A stretch of DNA of 20,747 nucleotides from a virus. Its lineage: Duplodnaviria > Heunggongvirae > Uroviricota > Caudoviricetes. How positions within the stretch are numbered: the stretch's first letter is position 1; each line of letters opens with the position of its first letter. Under the pieces are notes generated by a model that was not told where the DNA came from, ran no database searches, and worked only from the letters and a program-made list of their open reading frames with translations. This document shows, in pieces, positions 5,225-14,140 of the stretch. Made by a program: the position numbers and the translations under genes. The DNA lies in the IMG/VR virus record IMGVR_UViG_2579778622_000016, positions 1 to 20,747 of that record. One strand, given 5' to 3'.

Positions 5225-5369
5225 TGGATTCATCCTCTAAACTTTTACGTAACCGCCGGGTGATTTCGGCGGTTAGTGTTCTGTCGTTTTCTCTGGAAAT
5301 TTTTTCCAGTGCGTCTTTCAAGTCTTGCGGGATGCGTACCCGCAATTGTGGGTCATCACGTTTACTCAC
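5193..5369 (-). CDS. Arc-like ribbon-helix-helix protein (58 aa), paralogue of the 4895..5224 product
   Basis: Hand translation from GTG: (M)SKRDDPQLRVRIPQDLKDALEKISRENDRTLTAEITRRLRKSLEDESTIHSQDLATS; first 14 residues identical to the plus-strand RHH. SD GGAGGGG; GTG overlaps the VRR-NUC stop (GTGA). Not in the ORF track (under 60 aa). Confidence 0.55.
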   Translation of the reverse strand: MSKRDDPQLRVRIPQDLKDALEKISRENDRTLTAEITRRLRKSLEDESTIHSQDLATS

Positions 5370-6015: not shown

Positions 6016-6041
6016 TAAAAAGCCCCTGACTGAGCAGGGGC
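6016..6041 (-). terminator. Rho-independent terminator (minus strand) downstream of the Bro-N gene
   Basis: Stem GCCCCTG (6022-6028) / CAGGGGC (6035-6041) with a 6-nt loop; the A-run at 6016-6021 on the plus strand is a U-run on the minus-strand RNA. Confidence 0.6.
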
Positions 6042-7061: not shown

Positions 7062-9125
7062 TCAATCTTTCCGGTATCTGTAAGATTCGAATCCTCCGGC
7101 GTTTAGTGGAATGCTCGTGGCCCAGTCAGGAACGGTTGCCAGTAACTGGCTGAGATGTTCTGCTGAGTAATCGGGTGAGTCAGGGGCCTCACTTATAATT
7201 TCATCGTGTACCGTCAGCACAATGCTGTAACCGGCATCTTCGATAAGCGGCATGTTTCCGGCCAGAACGTCGCGGGCGGCCGCCTGGGTGACGTTCTCTA
7301 CCAGCTTTCCGCCGTAGGTTTTGAGTCGTTGCCATTTACGCGAATAAGAGTTAACACCCATATAGGTGATATCCCCTTTTTCGATAACCGGAGACGGGTA
7401 GCATACAGCGCGTCCAGATGGCAGCTGTATGCGCAGCCACGCGCCATCACGTTGAATTTTAAGATAGCCGCAATACAATGTTTTTTGCGGTGTGGCGATT
7501 GCTGTGCGGACAGTGCGCTCCAGCTCGTACCAGAAATCGCAGGTAGCCGGGTGCGCCCTGCGCCACAGGCGCTTGAGCGAGTCACATGCGATGAATACAC
7601 GCTCGGACAGGCCAAAGGTCGACTTACGTTTAACCGATTCGTCGTACCAGCTTTTCGCCTCGCGGATAACATCGCGGGGAATGTTTGGCAGTGCGGCGTT
7701 CGCCAGCTCGTCGAGATCGAGACCGTAAACCAGAGCAAAAGTGATGAAAGCCGATACACCACCTCCATAACCCAGACCGAGTTCCATGACTTTACCGATC
7801 TGACGCATGTGTTTATCAACATCATCTGGTGCAATATCGAAAGCTTTTGCATACGCCAGTTTATATAAGTCCGGACCCGTTCCGGCGTCGTACTCTCTGA
7901 ATGCATTCAGTTTCCATTCCTCTCCCGCCAGCCATGCCAGCATACGGCCTTCAATGTTTGACAAGTCACTTACCACCAGTTTTTTGCCTGTTGGCGCGAT
8001 AATGCAGCCACGTAACGCTGAACTGGTTAGTTCCATGATATTGTCAAACAGCAGGTCTGCACATCCGGCTTTCAGTGCTTCGATGCCTTCGTCTATTTGT
8101 TCCTGTTTTAGTGAAGGGCGGGGAAGGTTCTGGGGCTGGAATAGCCGTCCGGCCCAACGACCGGTACGTGACGCCCCGCAGAACTGTAGCGTACCGCGTA
8201 AGCGCCCGTCGTGGCTTACGCCTTTCATTAGTGCCTTGTATTTACTGGTGCTGGTAGTACTGGCCTGCAGGCGGATAGCCAGCAGTTCTTTCACGGCAGA
8301 TGGTAAATTGGGGTCGGCAATACGACGTTCCAGAGTACTGCGTTGCATGTGTGGTAGCTCCACACCGTAGGATTCAACAATGTGCTTAATCAACGCGTCT
8401 CGTTGTGTGGCTGCCTGCACTTCGCCATCAGTCATTTCCTGTGTACGCTTTGCCAGGCGCTTTTGCTCCTGGTCTACCGCTTCGATCGCAGCGCGCGCGA
8501 GTTGCATGTCCATGCAGACGCCCCGGTCGTTGATCTGCTGATCACGATGCCAGAGCGCCAGCTCTGTCCCCTGATAATTCCACTTCGGCAGACGTTTATA
8601 GACTTCGCGCATTGCCTCGATATCCAGTCCGGCGTAAGCAACAAAGCGCCGCCATTCTTCCGGGTGGGTTTTGCTGGTGGCACGGCGCAGTTTGCTATTT
8701 TTCGGACGTGGCTTACAGAACAGCTGGATCAGCGCCTTACCTTCTTTGTCCTTCGCTTTGTCTTGCGGGACGCCTAGTACTTCGCAGAGTTCCCCCAGAG
8801 ACCCCGGGAGACCGTGCGCCAGCGCCTGCACCATCGTGTCGCGCCAACGTTCGACTGGCGGTGCCAGTCGCGGCATTGCATAACGCAGAACGGTGCGGTC
8901 GAAGTGAGAGTTATGGAAATAAAGCAGGGTTTCAGGGTCTGCGATTGCTTCGTATAAGCCGTGTGGAATACCACCACCGGCAGTGATATCCCACACGTTT
9001 ACTGGCCCGTCGTTGATAGCCCATGCGAAAAGCATCACTTCAACGCCTTCGGCATACGCATGGGTACCGTTGTTGATCGGAATGTCACAATAGGTTTCCA
9101 GGTCGCCCCATAGTATATTGGACAT
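7062..9125 (-). CDS. Family-A DNA polymerase with 3'-5' exonuclease domain
   Basis: 687 aa; Exo I GDLETY, motif [13 protein letters not shown], motif [13 protein letters not shown], motif C VHDE. SD GAGGA 6 nt upstream. Confidence 0.9.
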
Positions 9126-9186
9126 AAAATATCCTCATATGGTATATGGTTAAATGCTAGATATCATGAATTAAAGGAGACAACTA
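9126..9186. promoter_or_regulatory. 61-bp divergent intergenic region with tandem TATGGTA/TATGGTT (operator-like) and both RBSs
   Basis: TATGGTATATGGTT at 9138-9151 resembles the TATGGT/ACCATA motifs found next to the CI-like repressor gene; flanked by the PolA start (minus) and the 9187 gene start (plus). Confidence 0.35.
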
Positions 9187-9876
9187 ATGACTGTGGGTAA
9201 TAAGAGACAGCCTAATGGATTACCTGAATATTATTGTCACCGTGGTAACGACATAAAAGATGCGATAGTTCGGGATTTTATTATTCAGCCTGTTGCACAC
9301 CTGAAACTTATTACTGGACAAACTAAAACCAGTTATTCCGGTTATCCGTTAACCGATCAGTACTATTGTTTTTCATTTAAAAAACGCTCTGATGAAAATT
9401 GTACAGGGGCTTTTTTCTGTGGTAGAGATGTTGCAAATGATTTCATTCGGCGTATCGGTTGTACAGAGCTGCCGTTATTTAATCCTATGAAATCGGATAC
9501 CAGTGCAGCAATAGAACGTTCCGGTTCTGGCTCAGGTAGTTCCGGTATTACTGTCAAGCCAAATGCTGACAAAAAGCTATTTATAGACGCAGCTCGTCTG
9601 TTAATGACGCTGTGGGATTCAACAAGTAAGGGACAAACCCCACTGGCGTCGGTTCTTAATGAAGCAATTTCTGGTGGTATAGATAAACCTCCAGAAATTA
9701 GACATGTAGTGGCGGTTAATACAATGTTGGGTAACACAAAAAATACTTTAACTGGCCTGCTGGATAAAGCAAGAGCGAAGTATCCTGATGTGTTATTCAG
9801 AGATTTTGATTTCACGCCTCTTAACGAGATTGTAAAACGTTCAAAATCATATAATAAGCATCCCCCTTGTTATTGA
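9187..9876 (+). CDS. Hypothetical two-domain protein (229 aa), opposite-strand accessory gene in the replication operon
   Basis: Strong SD AAGGAGA 7 nt upstream; visibly AT-richer than the flanking genes; Cys/His-rich N-domain, SGSGSGSSG linker, C-domain. No family recognised. Confidence 0.6.
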   Translation: MTVGNKRQPNGLPEYYCHRGNDIKDAIVRDFIIQPVAHLKLITGQTKTSYSGYPLTDQYYCFSFKKRSDENCTGAFFCGRDVANDFIRRIGCTELPLFNPMKSDTSAAIERSGSGSGSSGITVKPNADKKLFIDAARLLMTLWDSTSKGQTPLASVLNEAISGGIDKPPEIRHVVAVNTMLGNTKNTLTGLLDKARAKYPDVLFRDFDFTPLNEIVKRSKSYNKHPPCY

Positions 9877-10511
9877 GTATCAGACACTGTATTGGTAGGA
9901 AGGCCTATCATTTCATTTAATGTCTCTCGATGTACTGCTGGTGCTAAAGGGACTGGCGGTGCGTCTGTTGGAAGCAGTTCTTTAGCTTCGGGCCATACAT
10001 CCAGTAATCGTTTTACTGTCCGAACTTTATTTAGAGCCGCGCTGACGTTCTGTATGATTTCGGTTTCATCACTTTTAATTTGTGTGTAGAGAGCATCAAA
10101 GCTATAAAACTCCGTTACCAGAGGATCTTCGCCAAGTAGAGTAAATTCTGCAGGTGCTATTTTATTAATATGCTCGGGGGCTCCTGATTCATAACCTCTG
10201 TAGTTGCCATTGAAATAAATGTTTGCTCTGGCTCCAGCCAGATTGAGATATATGCAGCAATCTTTTCGAATTAAAGAACTATTGGTTTTTAATGAATCAG
10301 GGATTTTTGTTACCATGGATTCAATCTTTTTTAGATTTTTTAATATTTCAGCTTCTTTCTCTACGCCCCCGATAGCTGCAAGCCGAACACGTTCGGCCCA
10401 TTCAACACGAGCAGCTCGTAGTGCTGATTTACGTTTGGGGATTCCCGCTTTCTCAAGTGCGTTATTGATGATTTGAGTTTTAAGGTGATTAGTTAATACG
10501 GGCTGTGACAT
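9870..10511 (-). CDS. Hypothetical protein (213 aa)
   Basis: ORF with SD GAGGG upstream of the ATG at 10511 (the track's longer form to 10541 would run through a GC hairpin). 3' end overlaps the 9187..9876 gene by 7 bp. Family not recognised. Confidence 0.55.
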   Translation of the reverse strand: MSQPVLTNHLKTQIINNALEKAGIPKRKSALRAARVEWAERVRLAAIGGVEKEAEILKNLKKIESMVTKIPDSLKTNSSLIRKDCCIYLNLAGARANIYFNGNYRGYESGAPEHINKIAPAEFTLLGEDPLVTEFYSFDALYTQIKSDETEIIQNVSAALNKVRTVKRLLDVWPEAKELLPTDAPPVPLAPAVHRETLNEMIGLPTNTVSDTQ

Positions 10512-10529
10512 TATTCTTTCCCTCATGAG

Positions 10530-10554
10530 ATCCCCCAGCATGTAGCTGGGGGAT
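10530..10554. other. Perfect 10-bp GC-rich hairpin (ATCCCCCAGC-ATGTA-GCTGGGGGAT) between two co-directional minus-strand genes
   Basis: Perfect inverted repeat; on the plus strand it is followed by GAATATTTTT (terminator-like for rightward transcripts), on the minus strand it lies in the 5' leader of the 213-aa gene. Confidence 0.4.
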
Positions 10555-10562
10555 GAATATTT

Positions 10563-11111
10563 TTAAATTAGTGCTTCAGCATCAGCACCTTCGCTGATAT
10601 CGTCGAAATCGTCAGCGCTTGCCACTCCGCCGCCAGCGAATGCATCGCCGTCTCGCAGGAACTGGACTCCGCCGAGTGAGGCATTAATGCGTTTACCGAA
10701 ATTATTGTCCTGTGCCCAGATATCGATAACGGCGTTTACATAGCACCCTGCATAGGGACGTCCATCAGCCTGAATTAGTGGCGAACGATCGCGATCAAGA
10801 ACAGCTGGGCGCGCTTTGTTAGCAGCGTTCAGGAAGAAATTGCCGGGAAAGCCTTCATACTCTGCTTTTTCATCACCATCATGCAGGCACAGATTGAGTT
10901 TTTTCTCCAGCTGACTATAAATGGGCTCCCACTTCTCTCCCCATTTTTCCTTCGCTACCTGCTTCATAGCTTTACGGATTTCTTCCAGTTGTGGGTGTTT
11001 GGGAGACATTAAAAATACTGCGGAGAAACGCGGATCGCCTTCGCCGTTTACAGTTTTAGCTTCAAACAGAGACGGGAAGGCCAGGCGAACATTGTTCAGC
11101 TTCAGTTTCAT
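10563..11111 (-). CDS. DUF2815-like protein, putative phage ssDNA-binding protein
   Basis: 182 aa; N-terminus MKLKLNNVRLAFPSLFEAK and the acidic C-terminal tail DDFDDISEGADAEALI fit what I recall of DUF2815/gp2.5-like SSBs. SD AAGGAAA upstream. Confidence 0.7.
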   Translation of the reverse strand: MKLKLNNVRLAFPSLFEAKTVNGEGDPRFSAVFLMSPKHPQLEEIRKAMKQVAKEKWGEKWEPIYSQLEKKLNLCLHDGDEKAEYEGFPGNFFLNAANKARPAVLDRDRSPLIQADGRPYAGCYVNAVIDIWAQDNNFGKRINASLGGVQFLRDGDAFAGGGVASADDFDDISEGADAEALI

Positions 11112-11126
11112 GGGTATTTCCTTAAA

Positions 11127-12428
11127 TCAGATGAGGTCTGCGGTTAGCGTATCGTCGGATACGTCGTCGAAATCATTTACAGGGTTGATATTGAGTGCGG
11201 GGCGTGGGTCTGACTCGGGAACGACGGTGGGTTTTCCATCAGCTCGTGTTATCAGTGCCTCGACTTTTGACCAACGGCGCGGACTGGCCTTTTTGATAAG
11301 TTTTTCGGCTTTTGTGGGGCTAATAAGTTTAAAGTCGAATACTTCTTCAGTTTTGTACCTGAACTGGTCCTTCAGAAGTGCGCGAGCTGCCTCTTCATCA
11401 CTCCAGGCCCGGTTACCTTGTTTTCCTGTTACCAGTTTAAACCCCGGTACCGGATGTCCGGCATTGAGTTCATTGTGAACCCGGTCCCGTACTGCCTTTA
11501 GCCAAGATTCAATAAAGTCGGCCTGGCTATAGATCTCTGCAAGCTGCTCAATGGTTAACAGAGGTACACGTGCGCTGGCATTGGTGATTATTTCGCTGAC
11601 AGGCTTTGTCAGATCTTCAAAATCGCTGGCCGCTGTTTGTAAATGCTGCATTTTCTGGGCAGTGCAAATAGCTTTTGCTTTACAGAAGCGGCACTGTTTT
11701 TCTCCAGGTATGAAGTTTTCCAGCGGTAGTGTCTCAATGCCTTCGCATTCAGCAATATTGAGAACAAGGATCGCACTGGTTGCGGCCTCCAGCGCCCGTT
11801 CACCGAAAGACTGAAGTTCCTGTACGGTTAACGACCATTCTGAAACGTGGTTGAGCCTTGGTTGGTGAATAAATAATCTTACAGTTTCAAAGTCATACAG
11901 CATGCTGAATTGTTCAAGCGCACCCAGAGCATACAGTTGTAGTTGCTCATTTTGTTCTGCATCAATGCGGACGCCTTTGCCATATTTCAGGTCGTGGATT
12001 TGTAATTCGTTACCAGCGATGATTATGCCGTCGGCAGTTCCGAAAGATTCTTCCACACCCGTTATATGTGAGAAATCAACACGTTGTTCAACCAATAGTT
12101 CATTATTCTTTGCAAGAGTCCAGACCGTATCAACATACCGGCCGACGGCTTCGACCATTTCATCATCCACCTGTGGGCCAGATTTATCATCAGGATTTTC
12201 GCGAAGGGGGTATGAGCCGAGAAACATAGAAACATTGCATCCGGCGTAGTGTTCCGGGTGGCTTTGCCTGTTTCGTAGAACTTTTTCAGCAAGCGCGTGC
12301 GCTGCAGTGCCCTCGATTGCAAAAGTTGTTTCTTTATCCGGTTGTGTGGCCTCCAGCGCCAGACTTCCTGGGCAGCGCATCCATCGATGCGCTGATGATG
12401 GAGAAAGTTGTGCATGAACGTCTGGCAT
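11127..12428 (-). CDS. DUF2800-like PD-(D/E)xK nuclease (Cas4/RecB-like) with C-terminal Cys cluster
   Basis: 433 aa; [16 protein letters not shown]-terminal signature, [10 protein letters not shown] cluster, acidic tail [23 protein letters not shown] 6 nt upstream. Confidence 0.8.
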
Positions 12429-13565: not shown

Positions 13566-13591
13566 AAAAAAGCCCGTCACTTGCGGCGGGC
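13566..13591 (-). terminator. Rho-independent terminator (minus strand) after the first gene of the leftward operon
   Basis: Stem GCCCGTC (13572-13578) / GGCGGGC (13585-13591), one G-U pair, 6-nt loop; followed on the minus-strand RNA by U6 (plus A-run 13566-13571). Confidence 0.5.
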
Positions 13592-13622
13592 AAAGACTAC
13601 ACACAGCAATTACATGGATGAT

Positions 13623-13817
13623 TCAGTTGGTATTGTGCGTACGTGGTACCACGAGGTTGAAGCGGACACGCCAGTGCGTTGCAATGGTATGCAGGAAAGC
13701 ACCACATCTAGGGCAGTGCTCATAACATTCGTTGATTTGGTATCGTTTTGGCTTTGGTGTCTGAAGTTGTGTTTGGCAAGCAGGGCATTCACCTTTGAGC
13801 GGTTTATACGTTTTCAC
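13623..13817 (-). CDS. Small zinc-ribbon protein (64 aa), first gene of the leftward early operon
   Basis: GTG start with SD GAGGA; two CxxC pairs (CPAC ... CPRC). Confidence 0.5.
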   Translation of the reverse strand: MKTYKPLKGECPACQTQLQTPKPKRYQINECYEHCPRCGAFLHTIATHWRVRFNLVVPRTHNTN

Positions 13818-14020
13818 GCCGTTTCCTCATTCAGTTCACTTTGGTGGTTCGGCGGCTTCGACTTGTATCAGTAGACAGTGCTTCGCCGCACCCCAAAGGG
13901 AACTTACTGACCCGTATTGCCGACATCCTGTCCCGCCACGGTCCCGACGCATGGTTTAGAGTCGCGCCGTTCGACTTGATGAGGGATAAATTACTATGTT
14001 TATTGTATTACGTAAACCAC

Positions 14021-14055
14021 AAATATGGTATTTATGGTTGCAAAAATACCATATT
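14021..14055. promoter_or_regulatory. OL-like operator cluster (TATGGT / ACCATA half-sites)
   Basis: TATGGT at 14024-14029 and 14033-14038, inverted ACCATA at 14047-14052, inside an AT-rich stretch of the 323-bp non-coding region left of the repressor gene. Confidence 0.4.
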
Positions 14056-14140
14056 ATTGATATTTAAGTTAATTTAGTTGGTAGACAATCGGGGCGGGCG
14101 GTATGGCGGGAGGGCTTTTTCGCCCTCTTTCTGGATGGGA

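What the first reader, a model, noticed from the sequence alone, without database searches (positions are those of the whole stretch)
9870..10554. 213-aa unknown gene with a perfect GC hairpin in its leader, convergently overlapping the opposite-strand cargo gene
The 213-aa ORF (true start probably ATG 10511) is preceded by a perfect 10-bp stem ATCCCCCAGC/GCTGGGGGAT (10530-10554) that the longest-ORF call would read through. On the plus strand the hairpin is followed by a T-run, so it could block rightward transcription or act as a processing/attenuation site. Together with 9187..9876 it may form a two-gene convergent cassette. I half-recall replication-module accessory proteins of this size (Nmad-type) but cannot confirm that from sequence alone.
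Basis: partly seen in the sequence, partly recalled or inferred. Interest (0 to 1): 0.5.

Follow-up and report, generated by a model that had tools for sequence, protein, structure and literature searches.

The report
Nmad5 gene behind SSB-gene hairpin
The 213-aa gene is an already-catalogued Nmad5-family phage early gene of unknown biochemistry, the hairpin "in its leader" is a stem-loop found at the end of the upstream SSB gene in nearly all related phages, and the overlapping opposite-strand gene is an unrelated mobile cargo gene, so the locus is largely ordinary.

Summary
The ORF 9870-10511 (-), the perfect 10-bp hairpin at 10530-10554, the + strand T-run and the 7-nt convergent overlap with 9187-9876 (+) are all present.

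- **The gene.** It is a stand-alone Nmad5-family protein (PF18757, E 4e-54). RefSeq annotates a copy with the same name and the same start (ATG 10511) in a region 99.9% identical at the DNA level.
- **Its setting.** It lies in the leftward early operon of a temperate E. coli phage: DUF2800 nuclease, DUF2815 SSB, Nmad5, cargo slot, PolA. No base-modifying enzyme is in the window or annotated in a related whole prophage.
- **The protein.** It shows no enzyme-like fold and no catalytic-type conserved residues. I read it as a non-enzymatic accessory factor.
- **The hairpin.** It is not specific to Nmad5. A GC stem-loop 4-17 nt after the SSB stop is present in 56 of 62 distinct related flanks, with 19 different stems, whatever gene follows. 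Many relatives carry a U-tail in the operon's direction. This lineage has a T-run only on the opposite strand. The most likely role is an intra-operon partial terminator or 3'-end stabiliser, which may also stop antisense transcripts.
- **The two-gene cassette idea fails.** The 229-aa gene (PF27729, UCP028583) occurs alone elsewhere, and Nmad5 occurs with other neighbours.

Interest is low to moderate.

The parts
9870..10511 (-). Nmad5-family gene, 213 aa, stand-alone single-domain protein
   Evidence: PF18757 at E 3.8e-54 and 184 bits against a cut-off of 27. phrog_1965 at E 8.5e-58. RefSeq annotates this CDS with the same start in a 99.9% identical region. Homologues start at the same Met.
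10520..10524 (-). Shine-Dalgarno GAGGG of the Nmad5 gene, 8 nt before ATG 10511, 5 nt after the hairpin
   Evidence: Read directly from the sequence. It is not sequestered by the main hairpin in the minimum-free-energy folds.
10530..10554 (.). Perfect 10-bp GC-rich stem with a 5-nt loop, 8 nt after the SSB stop codon. This is the positionally conserved stem-loop at the 3' end of the SSB gene.
   Evidence: Conserved in position, with 19 different stem sequences, in 56 of 62 distinct SSB 3' flanks.
10555..10564 (+). GAATATTTTT tail. The T5 run (10560-10564) follows the stem on the + strand only and overlaps the SSB stop codon.
   Evidence: The operon-sense tail CTCATGAGGG has no U-run.
10563..11111 (-). 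DUF2815 / Enc34-type (gp2.5-like) ssDNA-binding protein gene, whose 3' end carries the hairpin
   Evidence: PF10991 at E 7.6e-44. phrog_112, Gp2.5-like SSB/annealing protein.
9187..9876 (+). 229-aa opposite-strand cargo gene of family PF27729 (UCP028583). Independently mobile and not a partner of Nmad5.
9870..9876 (.). 7-nt overlap of the two convergent stop codons (TTATTGA)
7062..9125 (-). Family A DNA polymerase gene, the next operon gene after the cargo slot
   Evidence: PF00476. SSB-[slot]-PolA synteny in relatives.
11127..12428 (-). DUF2800 PD-(D/E)XK nuclease gene, upstream member of the same operon
   Evidence: PF10926 at E 1.9e-110.

Best explanation
**Gene and setting.** The 213-aa ORF is a genuine early gene encoding a stand-alone Nmad5-family protein. 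It sits in the leftward early operon of a temperate E. coli phage, in the order DUF2800 nuclease, DUF2815 (gp2.5-like) SSB, Nmad5, cargo slot, PolA.

**Hairpin.** The hairpin is not a leader specific to this gene. It is the stem-loop that marks the 3' end of the SSB cistron in almost all related phages. It stands at the edge of a hypervariable slot between SSB and PolA. In different phages that slot holds Nmad5, various opposite-strand cargo genes, small same-strand genes, or nothing.

Inferred mechanism: during early leftward transcription the stem-loop acts as a partial terminator and/or a barrier to 3'-exonucleases. The abundant SSB message would then end or be stabilised there, and fewer transcripts would continue into Nmad5 and PolA. 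In this particular lineage the U-tract is missing in the operon's direction and a T-run lies on the other strand. The same element could therefore also stop rightward antisense transcripts that start at the 229-aa cargo gene, which has no convincing terminator of its own.

**Nmad5 protein.** It is most likely not an enzyme. I infer a helical accessory factor that works by binding a partner, through two features: its signature TVK(K/R)LLxxWPE helix, and a conserved C-terminal LNxMIGLP peptide on a flexible linker. I suggest a role in phage-host or anti-defence interplay rather than core replication.

**229-aa gene.** It is an unrelated, independently mobile single-gene cargo.
For: **Shown: gene identity and start.**

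**Shown: hairpin.**
- 56 of 62 distinct 60-nt flanks after related SSB genes hold a hairpin with p<=0.05 against dinucleotide shuffles.
- 90% of the flanks reach the score threshold, against 0.5% of 200 coding-region control windows.
- There are 19 different stem sequences.
- The hairpin is present whether Nmad5, another gene or PolA follows.
- Many relatives have U-rich tails in the operon's direction, for example GCCGGGC-TGTTTTCC and GCCGGGTG-TTTTGCAAAG, the latter directly before PolA.
- In 98 of 156 E. coli genomes that carry this SSB, similarity breaks exactly at the SSB stop.
- The window's version matches the terminator pattern on the + strand only.
- The 229-aa gene has no significant stem of its own (z -0.66). 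The 89-aa cargo in L003 does have one.

**Shown: Nmad5 protein.**
- The AF2 model has pLDDT 85.7.
- Deep conservation is limited to L169, W173, P181 and N199, plus R43, G48, G93, T165, P174, E175, L179, L198, G203 and L204.
- No base-modifying enzyme is found in the window or annotated in a related whole prophage.
- Other family members sit between N/Nun and cIII in lambdoid phages, or in the nin region of the rightward early operon of Salmonella phages (those neighbour assignments were read by eye from the sequences and not Pfam-tested, apart from Ead/Ea22).
- In Dhillonvirus the gene is dispensable and toxic to clone. A K-to-E change in it escapes Tmn defence (PMC11846954). I map that change to the second basic residue of the TVKK motif, which corresponds to window R168.

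**Shown: cargo independence.**
-.
Against: - No transcript data exist. The attenuator/stabiliser role is inferred from position and from relatives.
- In the operon's direction this hairpin lacks the U-tract that defines an intrinsic terminator, so termination there may be negligible.
- Presence of a convergent cargo gene does not correlate cleanly with the side on which the T-run lies.
- In Yuavirus SN1 a true Nmad5 (E 3e-33) sits inside the thymidine hypermodification cassette. A role in base modification therefore cannot be excluded for the family.
- Absence of a known fold does not prove that the protein is not an enzyme.
- The anti-defence reading rests on one published genetic observation in a distant homologue, plus genomic position.
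Confidence: 0.6

Rival explanations
1. The hairpin is chiefly a Rho-independent terminator for rightward (+ strand) transcription. It ends the antisense transcript that starts at the 229-aa cargo gene in lysogens, and so insulates SSB and the immunity side from it.
For: It is the only orientation that matches the terminator pattern. The 229-aa gene overlaps the Nmad5 stop and has no significant stem of its own. All E. coli CCCCCAGC-type variants keep the A-run on the operon-sense upstream side, and all of them have an opposite-strand cargo gene downstream.
Against: The T5 run starts 5 nt after the stem, which is a poor terminator geometry. The hairpin lies 654 nt beyond the 229-aa stop. The same hairpin and T-run occur in L003, where the 89-aa cargo has its own stem plus T-tail. 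Homologous-position hairpins in most other lineages have the U-tail in the operon's direction, or on neither side, including loci with convergent cargo. No consensus-level promoter was found for the 229-aa gene.
Confidence: 0.3
2. The hairpin is a translational or attenuation leader that controls Nmad5 synthesis, for example by masking its ribosome-binding site or by acting as a processing site.
For: It lies 5 nt upstream of the Shine-Dalgarno sequence. Lambdoid Nmad5 genes are also preceded by a terminator-like hairpin after N (GGCCGC-CTA-GCGGTC-TTTTTT). A Dhillonvirus Nmad5 was reported as toxic to clone (PMC11846954), so tight control would make sense.
Against: The Shine-Dalgarno sequence and the ATG are outside the stem in the predicted folds. 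The equivalent hairpin is present after SSB in phages that lack Nmad5 altogether. No Rfam family matches. A 10-bp stem is too short for a typical RNase III site (established knowledge).
Confidence: 0.1
3. Nmad5 and the 229-aa gene form a functional two-gene convergent cassette, such as a toxin-antitoxin-like or defence pair regulated by antisense overlap.
For: The two are adjacent with a 7-nt stop-codon overlap, and they co-occur in 26 of 5426 complete E. coli genomes. Nmad5 was reported as toxic to clone in another phage (PMC11846954).
Against: The 229-aa family occurs alone in Dickeya, Enterobacter, a MAG and other contigs with no Nmad5 nearby. Nmad5 is found with other neighbours or none. 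58 E. coli genomes keep the SSB-Nmad5 junction, but only 26 have the full pair.
Confidence: 0.05
4. Nmad5 is a DNA- or nucleotide-modifying enzyme, or an obligatory subunit of one, as its name and some papers state. In that case it modifies phage DNA here too.
For: The family name and PGAP product name say so. A true family member lies inside the thymidine hypermodification cassette of Yuavirus SN1, next to aGPT-Pplase1 and the pyrimidine hydroxymethylase.
Against: No modification enzyme is in the window or annotated in the related complete prophage. There is no enzyme-like fold. The conserved residues are mostly hydrophobic or structural, with no catalytic constellation. Most members sit in lambdoid early operons without modification genes.
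Confidence: 0.12
5. Nmad5 is a replication or recombination accessory protein, for example a mediator between the gp2.5-like SSB and the polymerase or annealing machinery.
For: The conserved order SSB-Nmad5-PolA persists down to 40% identity. In other phages it shares the early operon with RecT plus a PDDEXK nuclease, with ERF, or with AAA_24 plus ExoX and SSB. It has a basic N-terminal helical bundle (+7), and the SSB has an acidic tail.
Against: It is absent from about two thirds of otherwise near-identical E. coli prophages that have the same SSB and PolA. It is found in the nin region in Salmonella phages. It is dispensable in Dhillonvirus (PMC11846954).
Confidence: 0.2

Closest known systems
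Nmad5 family (Pfam PF18757, 'Nucleotide modification associated domain 5'). The Tmn paper PMC11846954 cites Iyer et al. 2013, NAR 41:7635, for its predicted role in base modification. I could not read that paper.
   Same: Full-length match far above the cut-off. Same ~200-aa stand-alone architecture. Same signature motifs, TVK(K/R)LLxxWPE and LNxxIGLP. RefSeq already names it so in a 99.9% identical region.
   Different: Here there are no nucleotide-modifying genes in the neighbourhood, which is the association the name rests on. It lies in a variable slot of a replication/recombination operon.
Nmad5 of Yuavirus phages (SN1_019, M6-like), within the thymidine hypermodification cassette
   Same: Homologous protein (hhalign E 1e-19, Pfam E 3e-33). 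Also transcribed in the same direction as, and upstream of, a family A DNA polymerase gene.
   Different: In SN1 it is flanked by aGPT-Pplase1, a kinase, rSAM and PLP enzymes and a pyrimidine hydroxymethylase. None of these is present here.
nmad5 of Dhillonvirus (SM_S22 CDS6). A K296E change escapes the Tmn defence system (PMC11846954).
   Same: Same domain (hhalign E 1e-15). The escape residue maps to the conserved TVKK motif, equivalent to window R168.
   Different: The Dhillonvirus gene lies on the opposite strand within the head module and has a large internal insertion. Its annotated start is probably about 80 codons too long. No Tmn link has been tested for the window's protein.
Intra-operon intrinsic terminators and 3' stabilising stem-loops. 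Examples are the lambda tL terminators read through by N, and the intercistronic REP stem-loops of malE-malF that stabilise the upstream message. These examples come from established knowledge, not from a test here.
   Same: A GC-rich stem-loop immediately after the stop codon of a highly expressed gene, within a polycistronic early operon. Relatives carry U-tails in the sense direction.
   Different: This copy lacks the sense-strand U-tract. No antiterminator has been identified for this operon. Activity is untested.
Prophage 'morons' and cargo hotspots (Hendrix-type mosaic insertions). This comparison is from established knowledge.
   Same: The 229-aa gene is opposite-strand, variably present among near-identical prophages, and replaced by unrelated genes at the same slot.
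   Different: No consensus promoter or own terminator could be shown for it. It overlaps the neighbouring gene's stop codon rather than sitting between clean boundaries.

Membership tests
Nmad5 (PF18757) | Match to the family HMM above the curated cut-off over the full domain | tested here: met
   184.3 bits against a cut-off of 27, covering profile positions 3-206 of 206. phrog_1965 at E 8.5e-58.
Nmad5 (PF18757) | Stand-alone protein of about 190-215 aa with the conserved TVK(K/R)LLxxWPE and C-terminal LNxxIGLP motifs | tested here: met
   Alignments A2 and A4. Nearly all of the 150 best of 2404 representatives are 190-215 aa and match from residue 1.
Nmad5 (PF18757) | Genomic association with nucleotide- or base-modifying enzymes, which is the basis of the family's name | tested here: not met
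   No such domain in any sizeable ORF of the 20.7-kb window. None annotated in the related complete prophage of strain MINF_1D. The association is met in Yuavirus SN1.
Nmad5 (PF18757) | A demonstrated biochemical activity | not testable with these tools
   None was found in the four library papers that mention Nmad5. Fold searches give no enzyme-like match.
Intrinsic (Rho-independent) terminator | Stable GC-rich stem-loop | tested here: met
   10 bp with 7 GC pairs, about -21 kcal/mol, z about -3.2 to -3.7.
Intrinsic (Rho-independent) terminator | U-tract directly 3' of the stem on the transcribed strand, taking the operon sense (- strand) | tested here: not met
   The tail is CUCAUGAGGG, and the scan makes no - strand call. 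Relatives at the same position often do have U-tails.
Intrinsic (Rho-independent) terminator | U-tract directly 3' of the stem on the transcribed strand, taking the + strand | tested here: inconclusive
   The tail GAAUAUUUUU passes the scan's rule, but the T5 run starts 5 nt after the stem, and the nearest + strand gene ends 654 nt upstream.
Intrinsic (Rho-independent) terminator | RNA 3' ends formed at the site in vivo | not testable with these tools
   Needs term-seq or 3' RACE.
Conserved SSB 3'-end stem-loop of DUF2815-SSB phages (defined here) | Stem-loop within about 20 nt of the SSB stop, regardless of the downstream gene, with stems that differ but stay paired | tested here: met
   56 of 62 flanks at p<=0.05. 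90% of flanks reach the score threshold, against 0.5% of coding controls. 19 stem types. Caveat: the paired stems were found by a hairpin search, so this is not an independent covariation test.
Two-gene cassette (Nmad5 plus the 229-aa gene) | Consistent co-occurrence of the two genes across genomes | tested here: not met
PF27729 (UCP028583), for the 229-aa gene | Match to the family model | tested here: inconclusive
   All 18 homologues, including the 99%-identical cluster, carry a precomputed PF27729 hit. The local Pfam scan returned no family for this protein, so I did not score the window protein against that model myself.
Prophage moron, for the 229-aa gene | Variable presence at a fixed slot between conserved genes, with its own promoter and terminator | tested here: inconclusive
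   Variable presence and replacement at the slot are shown. No consensus promoter was found, and no significant terminator of its own.

The most novel reading that the evidence does not exclude
The junction between the gp2.5-like SSB gene and PolA may be a dedicated cargo hotspot in a widespread group of enterobacterial temperate phages. Its left edge would be a conserved SSB-terminal hairpin. Within it, Nmad5 would not be a 'nucleotide modification' protein at all. It would be a non-enzymatic early adaptor whose TVK(K/R)LLxxWPE surface engages host or defence proteins, this being the same surface whose charge reversal escapes Tmn. The overlapping 229-aa UCP028583 gene would be a previously unrecognised single-gene prophage defence or exclusion factor, expressed antisense to Nmad5 in lysogens.
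Probability: 0.15. Interest if true: 0.55.

Novelty: already known. Interest (0 to 1): 0.25.

Why it matters
In practice the result corrects an ORF start. It also shows that the 'unknown gene' is a catalogued family member and the hairpin an ordinary intercistronic element.

Three points have modest wider value:

- **The family name may mislead.** Nmad5 is widespread: 2404 cluster representatives at 50% identity. Papers call it a 'DNA modification enzyme', but I found no enzyme-like fold, no catalytic residues and, in most contexts examined, no modification partners. That label rests on guilt by association.
- **The Tmn-escape mutation gains a location.** It maps onto the family's signature motif, which gives a concrete surface to test.
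- **The SSB-PolA slot is a place to look for cargo.** Together with the UCP028583 gene, it may hold prophage-encoded defence or counter-defence genes.

Tried and rejected
- **Rfam.** A scan of 8900-11300 at E<=1 found no RNA family.
- **Protein family libraries.** PADLOC and NCBIfam gave nothing for either gene, and PHROGs gave only the unknown-function family phrog_1965 for Nmad5 and nothing for the 229-aa gene.
- **DNA-mimic idea for Nmad5.** Rejected, because the pI is about 7 and the N-terminal bundle is basic.
- **Link between T-run side and convergent cargo.** I looked for a correlation between a convergent cargo gene and the strand carrying the T-run. None was clean.
- **Terminator for the 229-aa gene.** The stem at 9893-9910 is not significant, at z -0.66.
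- **Terminator at about 13569-13594 (-).** The stem there (GCCCG...CGGGC followed by T6) is not supported by the fold.
- **Iyer et al. 2013.** The paper is not held in the library, so the original rationale for the family name could not be read.
- **Genome-contig scan.** It gave only 2 loci.
- **Covariance model of the hairpin.** I did not build one. Any alignment would have been selected by a hairpin search and therefore circular.
Full report
**Observation**

- The hairpin arms are ATCCCCCAGC (10530-10539) and GCTGGGGGAT (10545-10554), around the loop ATGTA.
- On the + strand the stem is followed by GAATA and then TTTTT (10560-10564).
- The longest ORF call is 9870-10541 on the - strand, 223 aa. 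Its ATG lies in the hairpin loop.
- The inner ATG at 10511 gives 213 aa and has a GAGGG Shine-Dalgarno 8 nt upstream.
- The convergent + strand ORF 9187-9876 overlaps it by 7 nt, and the two stop codons share TTATTGA.

The hairpin is more than chance would give. It is the only perfect >=10-bp hairpin in the 20.7-kb window, against 0.16 expected per window. It folds at about -21 kcal/mol on either strand, with z about -3.2 to -3.7. The consensus scan flags it as terminator-like on the + strand only.

**What the gene is**

- The protein matches Pfam PF18757 (Nmad5) at E 3.8e-54, with 184 bits against a cut-off of 27. The match starts at residue 16 of the long form. It also matches phrog_1965, a family of unknown function.
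- In a region 99.9% identical at the DNA level in E. coli MINF_1D, RefSeq annotates the CDS as 'Nmad5 family putative nucleotide modification protein', 213 aa, with the same start.
- All 33 aligned homologues begin at that methionine.
- A full HMMER search finds 2404 cluster representatives at E<=0.001. Nearly all of the best 150 are 190-215 aa and match from residue 1.

The short start is therefore right, and the longer N-terminal extension is not conserved.

**Context**

The window is the early region of a temperate E. coli phage.
- On the - strand: an excisionase-like gene, an SNF2 helicase, Rha, Bro-N, family A DNA polymerase, Nmad5, a DUF2815/Enc34 gp2.5-like SSB, a DUF2800 PD-(D/E)XK nuclease, a 309-aa protein and an S24 repressor.
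- On the + strand: integrase, an Arc-like gene and the 229-aa gene, then Cro, an AAA_25 protein, a CoiA-like nuclease and antiterminator Q.
- No nucleotide- or base-modifying enzyme is present.
- A related complete prophage, between yfhL and yfhH in MINF_1D, has none annotated either.

**The hairpin belongs to the SSB gene, not to Nmad5**

Phage vB_EcoM-606R2 has the same SSB at 99% identity but no Nmad5. Similarity stops exactly at the SSB stop codon. A different GC hairpin (GCCCGGT/ACCGGGC) follows there.

I collected 62 distinct 60-nt flanks downstream of related SSB genes.
- 56 contain a hairpin with p<=0.05 against dinucleotide shuffles.
- 90% reach the score threshold, against 0.5% of 200 coding-region control windows.
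- There are 19 different stem sequences, starting 4-17 nt after the stop in most.

What follows the hairpin varies widely. It can be Nmad5, opposite-strand genes of 166-227 aa, small same-strand genes, or PolA directly. Among 156 complete E. coli genomes with this SSB, 58 keep the hairpin-Nmad5 junction and 98 break at the stop codon.

Many relatives have U-rich tails in the operon's direction. One example is GCCGGGTG-TTTTGCAAAG directly before PolA. The window's lineage (CCCCCAGC type) has the tail CTCATGAGGG in that direction, and an A-run upstream that reads as a T-run on the + strand.

The Shine-Dalgarno sequence of Nmad5 lies outside the stem. No Rfam family matches.

**Likely function of the hairpin (inferred)**

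A stem-loop right after the stop of a gene needed in stoichiometric amounts, inside a polycistronic early operon, is best explained as a partial terminator and/or a 3' stabiliser. It would lower expression of the downstream genes relative to SSB.

At least one canonical terminator lies further along the same operon, at 6041-6022 on the - strand, with z -3.3. In lambdoid relatives Nmad5 is also preceded by a terminator after N.

In this window the element may additionally stop rightward antisense transcripts.
- The 229-aa gene has no convincing terminator of its own (z -0.66).
- The 89-aa cargo in strain CREC-544 does have one.
- Both carry the same SSB hairpin with its T-run, so the T-run is not specific to this arrangement.

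None of this is shown by transcript data.

**The cassette idea**

All homologues of the 229-aa protein carry the precomputed family PF27729 (UCP028583). Copies at 64-72% identity sit as lone genes in four places:
- Dickeya, next to a 1056-aa SIR2_2 protein;
- Enterobacter;
- a metagenome-assembled genome;
- a small island beside an integrase fragment.

None of these has Nmad5 nearby. A distant homologue lies inside a type I restriction-modification locus, after a HigB-like toxin and an HTH protein.

Conversely, Nmad5 is followed by an 89-aa membrane protein, a 186-aa protein, a 206/254-aa protein, an HNH endonuclease, or nothing.

The two genes are independent cargo that happen to abut. The 229-aa protein has no hit in PADLOC, PHROGs or NCBIfam and no fold match. 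Its function is unknown. A defence or exclusion role is a guess from its contexts.

**What Nmad5 may do**

Structure:
- The AF2 model has pLDDT 85.7.
- It consists of an N-terminal three-helix bundle, a small three-stranded sheet, a long helix, two short helices carrying the WPE motif, a disordered linker and a short C-terminal helix.
- BFVD returns only other Nmad5 proteins.

Conservation and charge:
- Across 75 diverse members the invariant or near-invariant residues are R43, G48, G93, T165, L169, W173, P174, E175, L179, P181, L198, N199, G203 and L204. This is not a catalytic-type set.
- The protein is near neutral, with a basic N-terminal bundle.

Genomic positions of family members:
- between SSB and PolA, as here;
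- between N/Nun and cIII in lambdoid phages such as mEp235;
- in the nin region of Salmonella phages (those neighbour assignments were read by eye from the sequences, and only Ead/Ea22 was Pfam-tested);
- in Yuavirus SN1, inside the thymidine hypermodification cassette.

Published genetics: in Dhillonvirus the gene is dispensable and toxic to clone, and a K-to-E change in it escapes Tmn defence (PMC11846954). By profile alignment that residue is the second basic residue of the TVKK-LL-WPE motif, equivalent to window R168.

I therefore favour a non-enzymatic accessory factor that acts by binding a partner, possibly in phage-host or defence interplay. A replication/recombination accessory role and a role in base modification remain as rivals. 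All of this is inference.

**Comparison with what is known, and verdict**

- The gene is a catalogued family member, already annotated in RefSeq.
- The hairpin is an ordinary kind of intercistronic element.
- The overlapping gene is a typical piece of prophage cargo.

Three points are mildly new. First, the SSB-terminal hairpin is strongly conserved in position, at the edge of a hypervariable SSB-PolA slot. Second, the 'nucleotide modification' label has no support for this member. Third, the Tmn-escape mutation maps to the family's signature motif.

Interest is low to moderate, at 0.25.

Noticed in passing
window 13623-13817 (-), and about 13569-13594 (-): A 64-aa zinc-ribbon-like ORF appears to be the first gene of the leftward operon; its Pfam hits are weak and all at or below the cut-offs. 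It is followed by GCCCG...CGGGC and a T6 run. The fold does not support that stem (z -0.86). Whether this small protein regulates read-through of the operon's hairpins is unknown.
   Followed up: partly
window about 14020-14056: A perfect 10-bp inverted repeat, AATATGGTAT...ATACCATATT, lies just downstream of the repressor gene stop, in the region where the leftward early promoter would be expected. It is operator-like.
   Followed up: no
window 6022-6041 (-): A canonical terminator, GCCCCTG-CTCAGT-CAGGGGC followed by TTTTT (z -3.3), lies right after the Bro-N gene in the same leftward operon. The operon is therefore punctuated by terminators.
   Followed up: partly
L001 2383-3144 (phage vB_EcoM-606R2): In the related phage a CAP12/Pycsar-type TIR-domain protein (PF10137, E 3e-31) sits just after PolA. 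This suggests a second cargo slot in this phage group that carries a defence-like gene.
   Followed up: partly
L173 3660-5741 (metagenome contig): A distant UCP028583 homologue (33% identity) is the third gene of a tight co-oriented trio: a HigB-like toxin, a 372-aa HTH_3 protein, and UCP028583. The trio is embedded in a type I restriction-modification locus.
   Followed up: no
L176 5005-6009 (Escherichia phage SM_S22, CDS6): The Dhillonvirus 'nmad5' CDS is annotated at 334 aa and overlaps the scaffolding-protein gene by about 200 nt. The Nmad5 domain starts at residue 80, so the annotated start is probably about 80 codons too long. The Tmn-escape change K296E falls in the TVKK-LL-WPE motif.
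   Followed up: partly
L019, L025, L040 and others (slot between SSB, Nmad5 and PolA): NUMOD4 plus HNH_3 homing-endonuclease genes (160-172 aa) occupy positions beside the DUF2800, Nmad5 and PolA genes in several relatives. This is consistent with active gene flux at these junctions.
   Followed up: partly
window 5250-5275 (+) and 12373-12394: These are the only other perfect 9-bp hairpins in the window. One lies 26 nt after the Arc-like gene (TAACCGCCG...CGGCGGTTA, flagged as terminator-like on the + strand). The other lies inside the 5' part of the DUF2800 gene.
   Followed up: no
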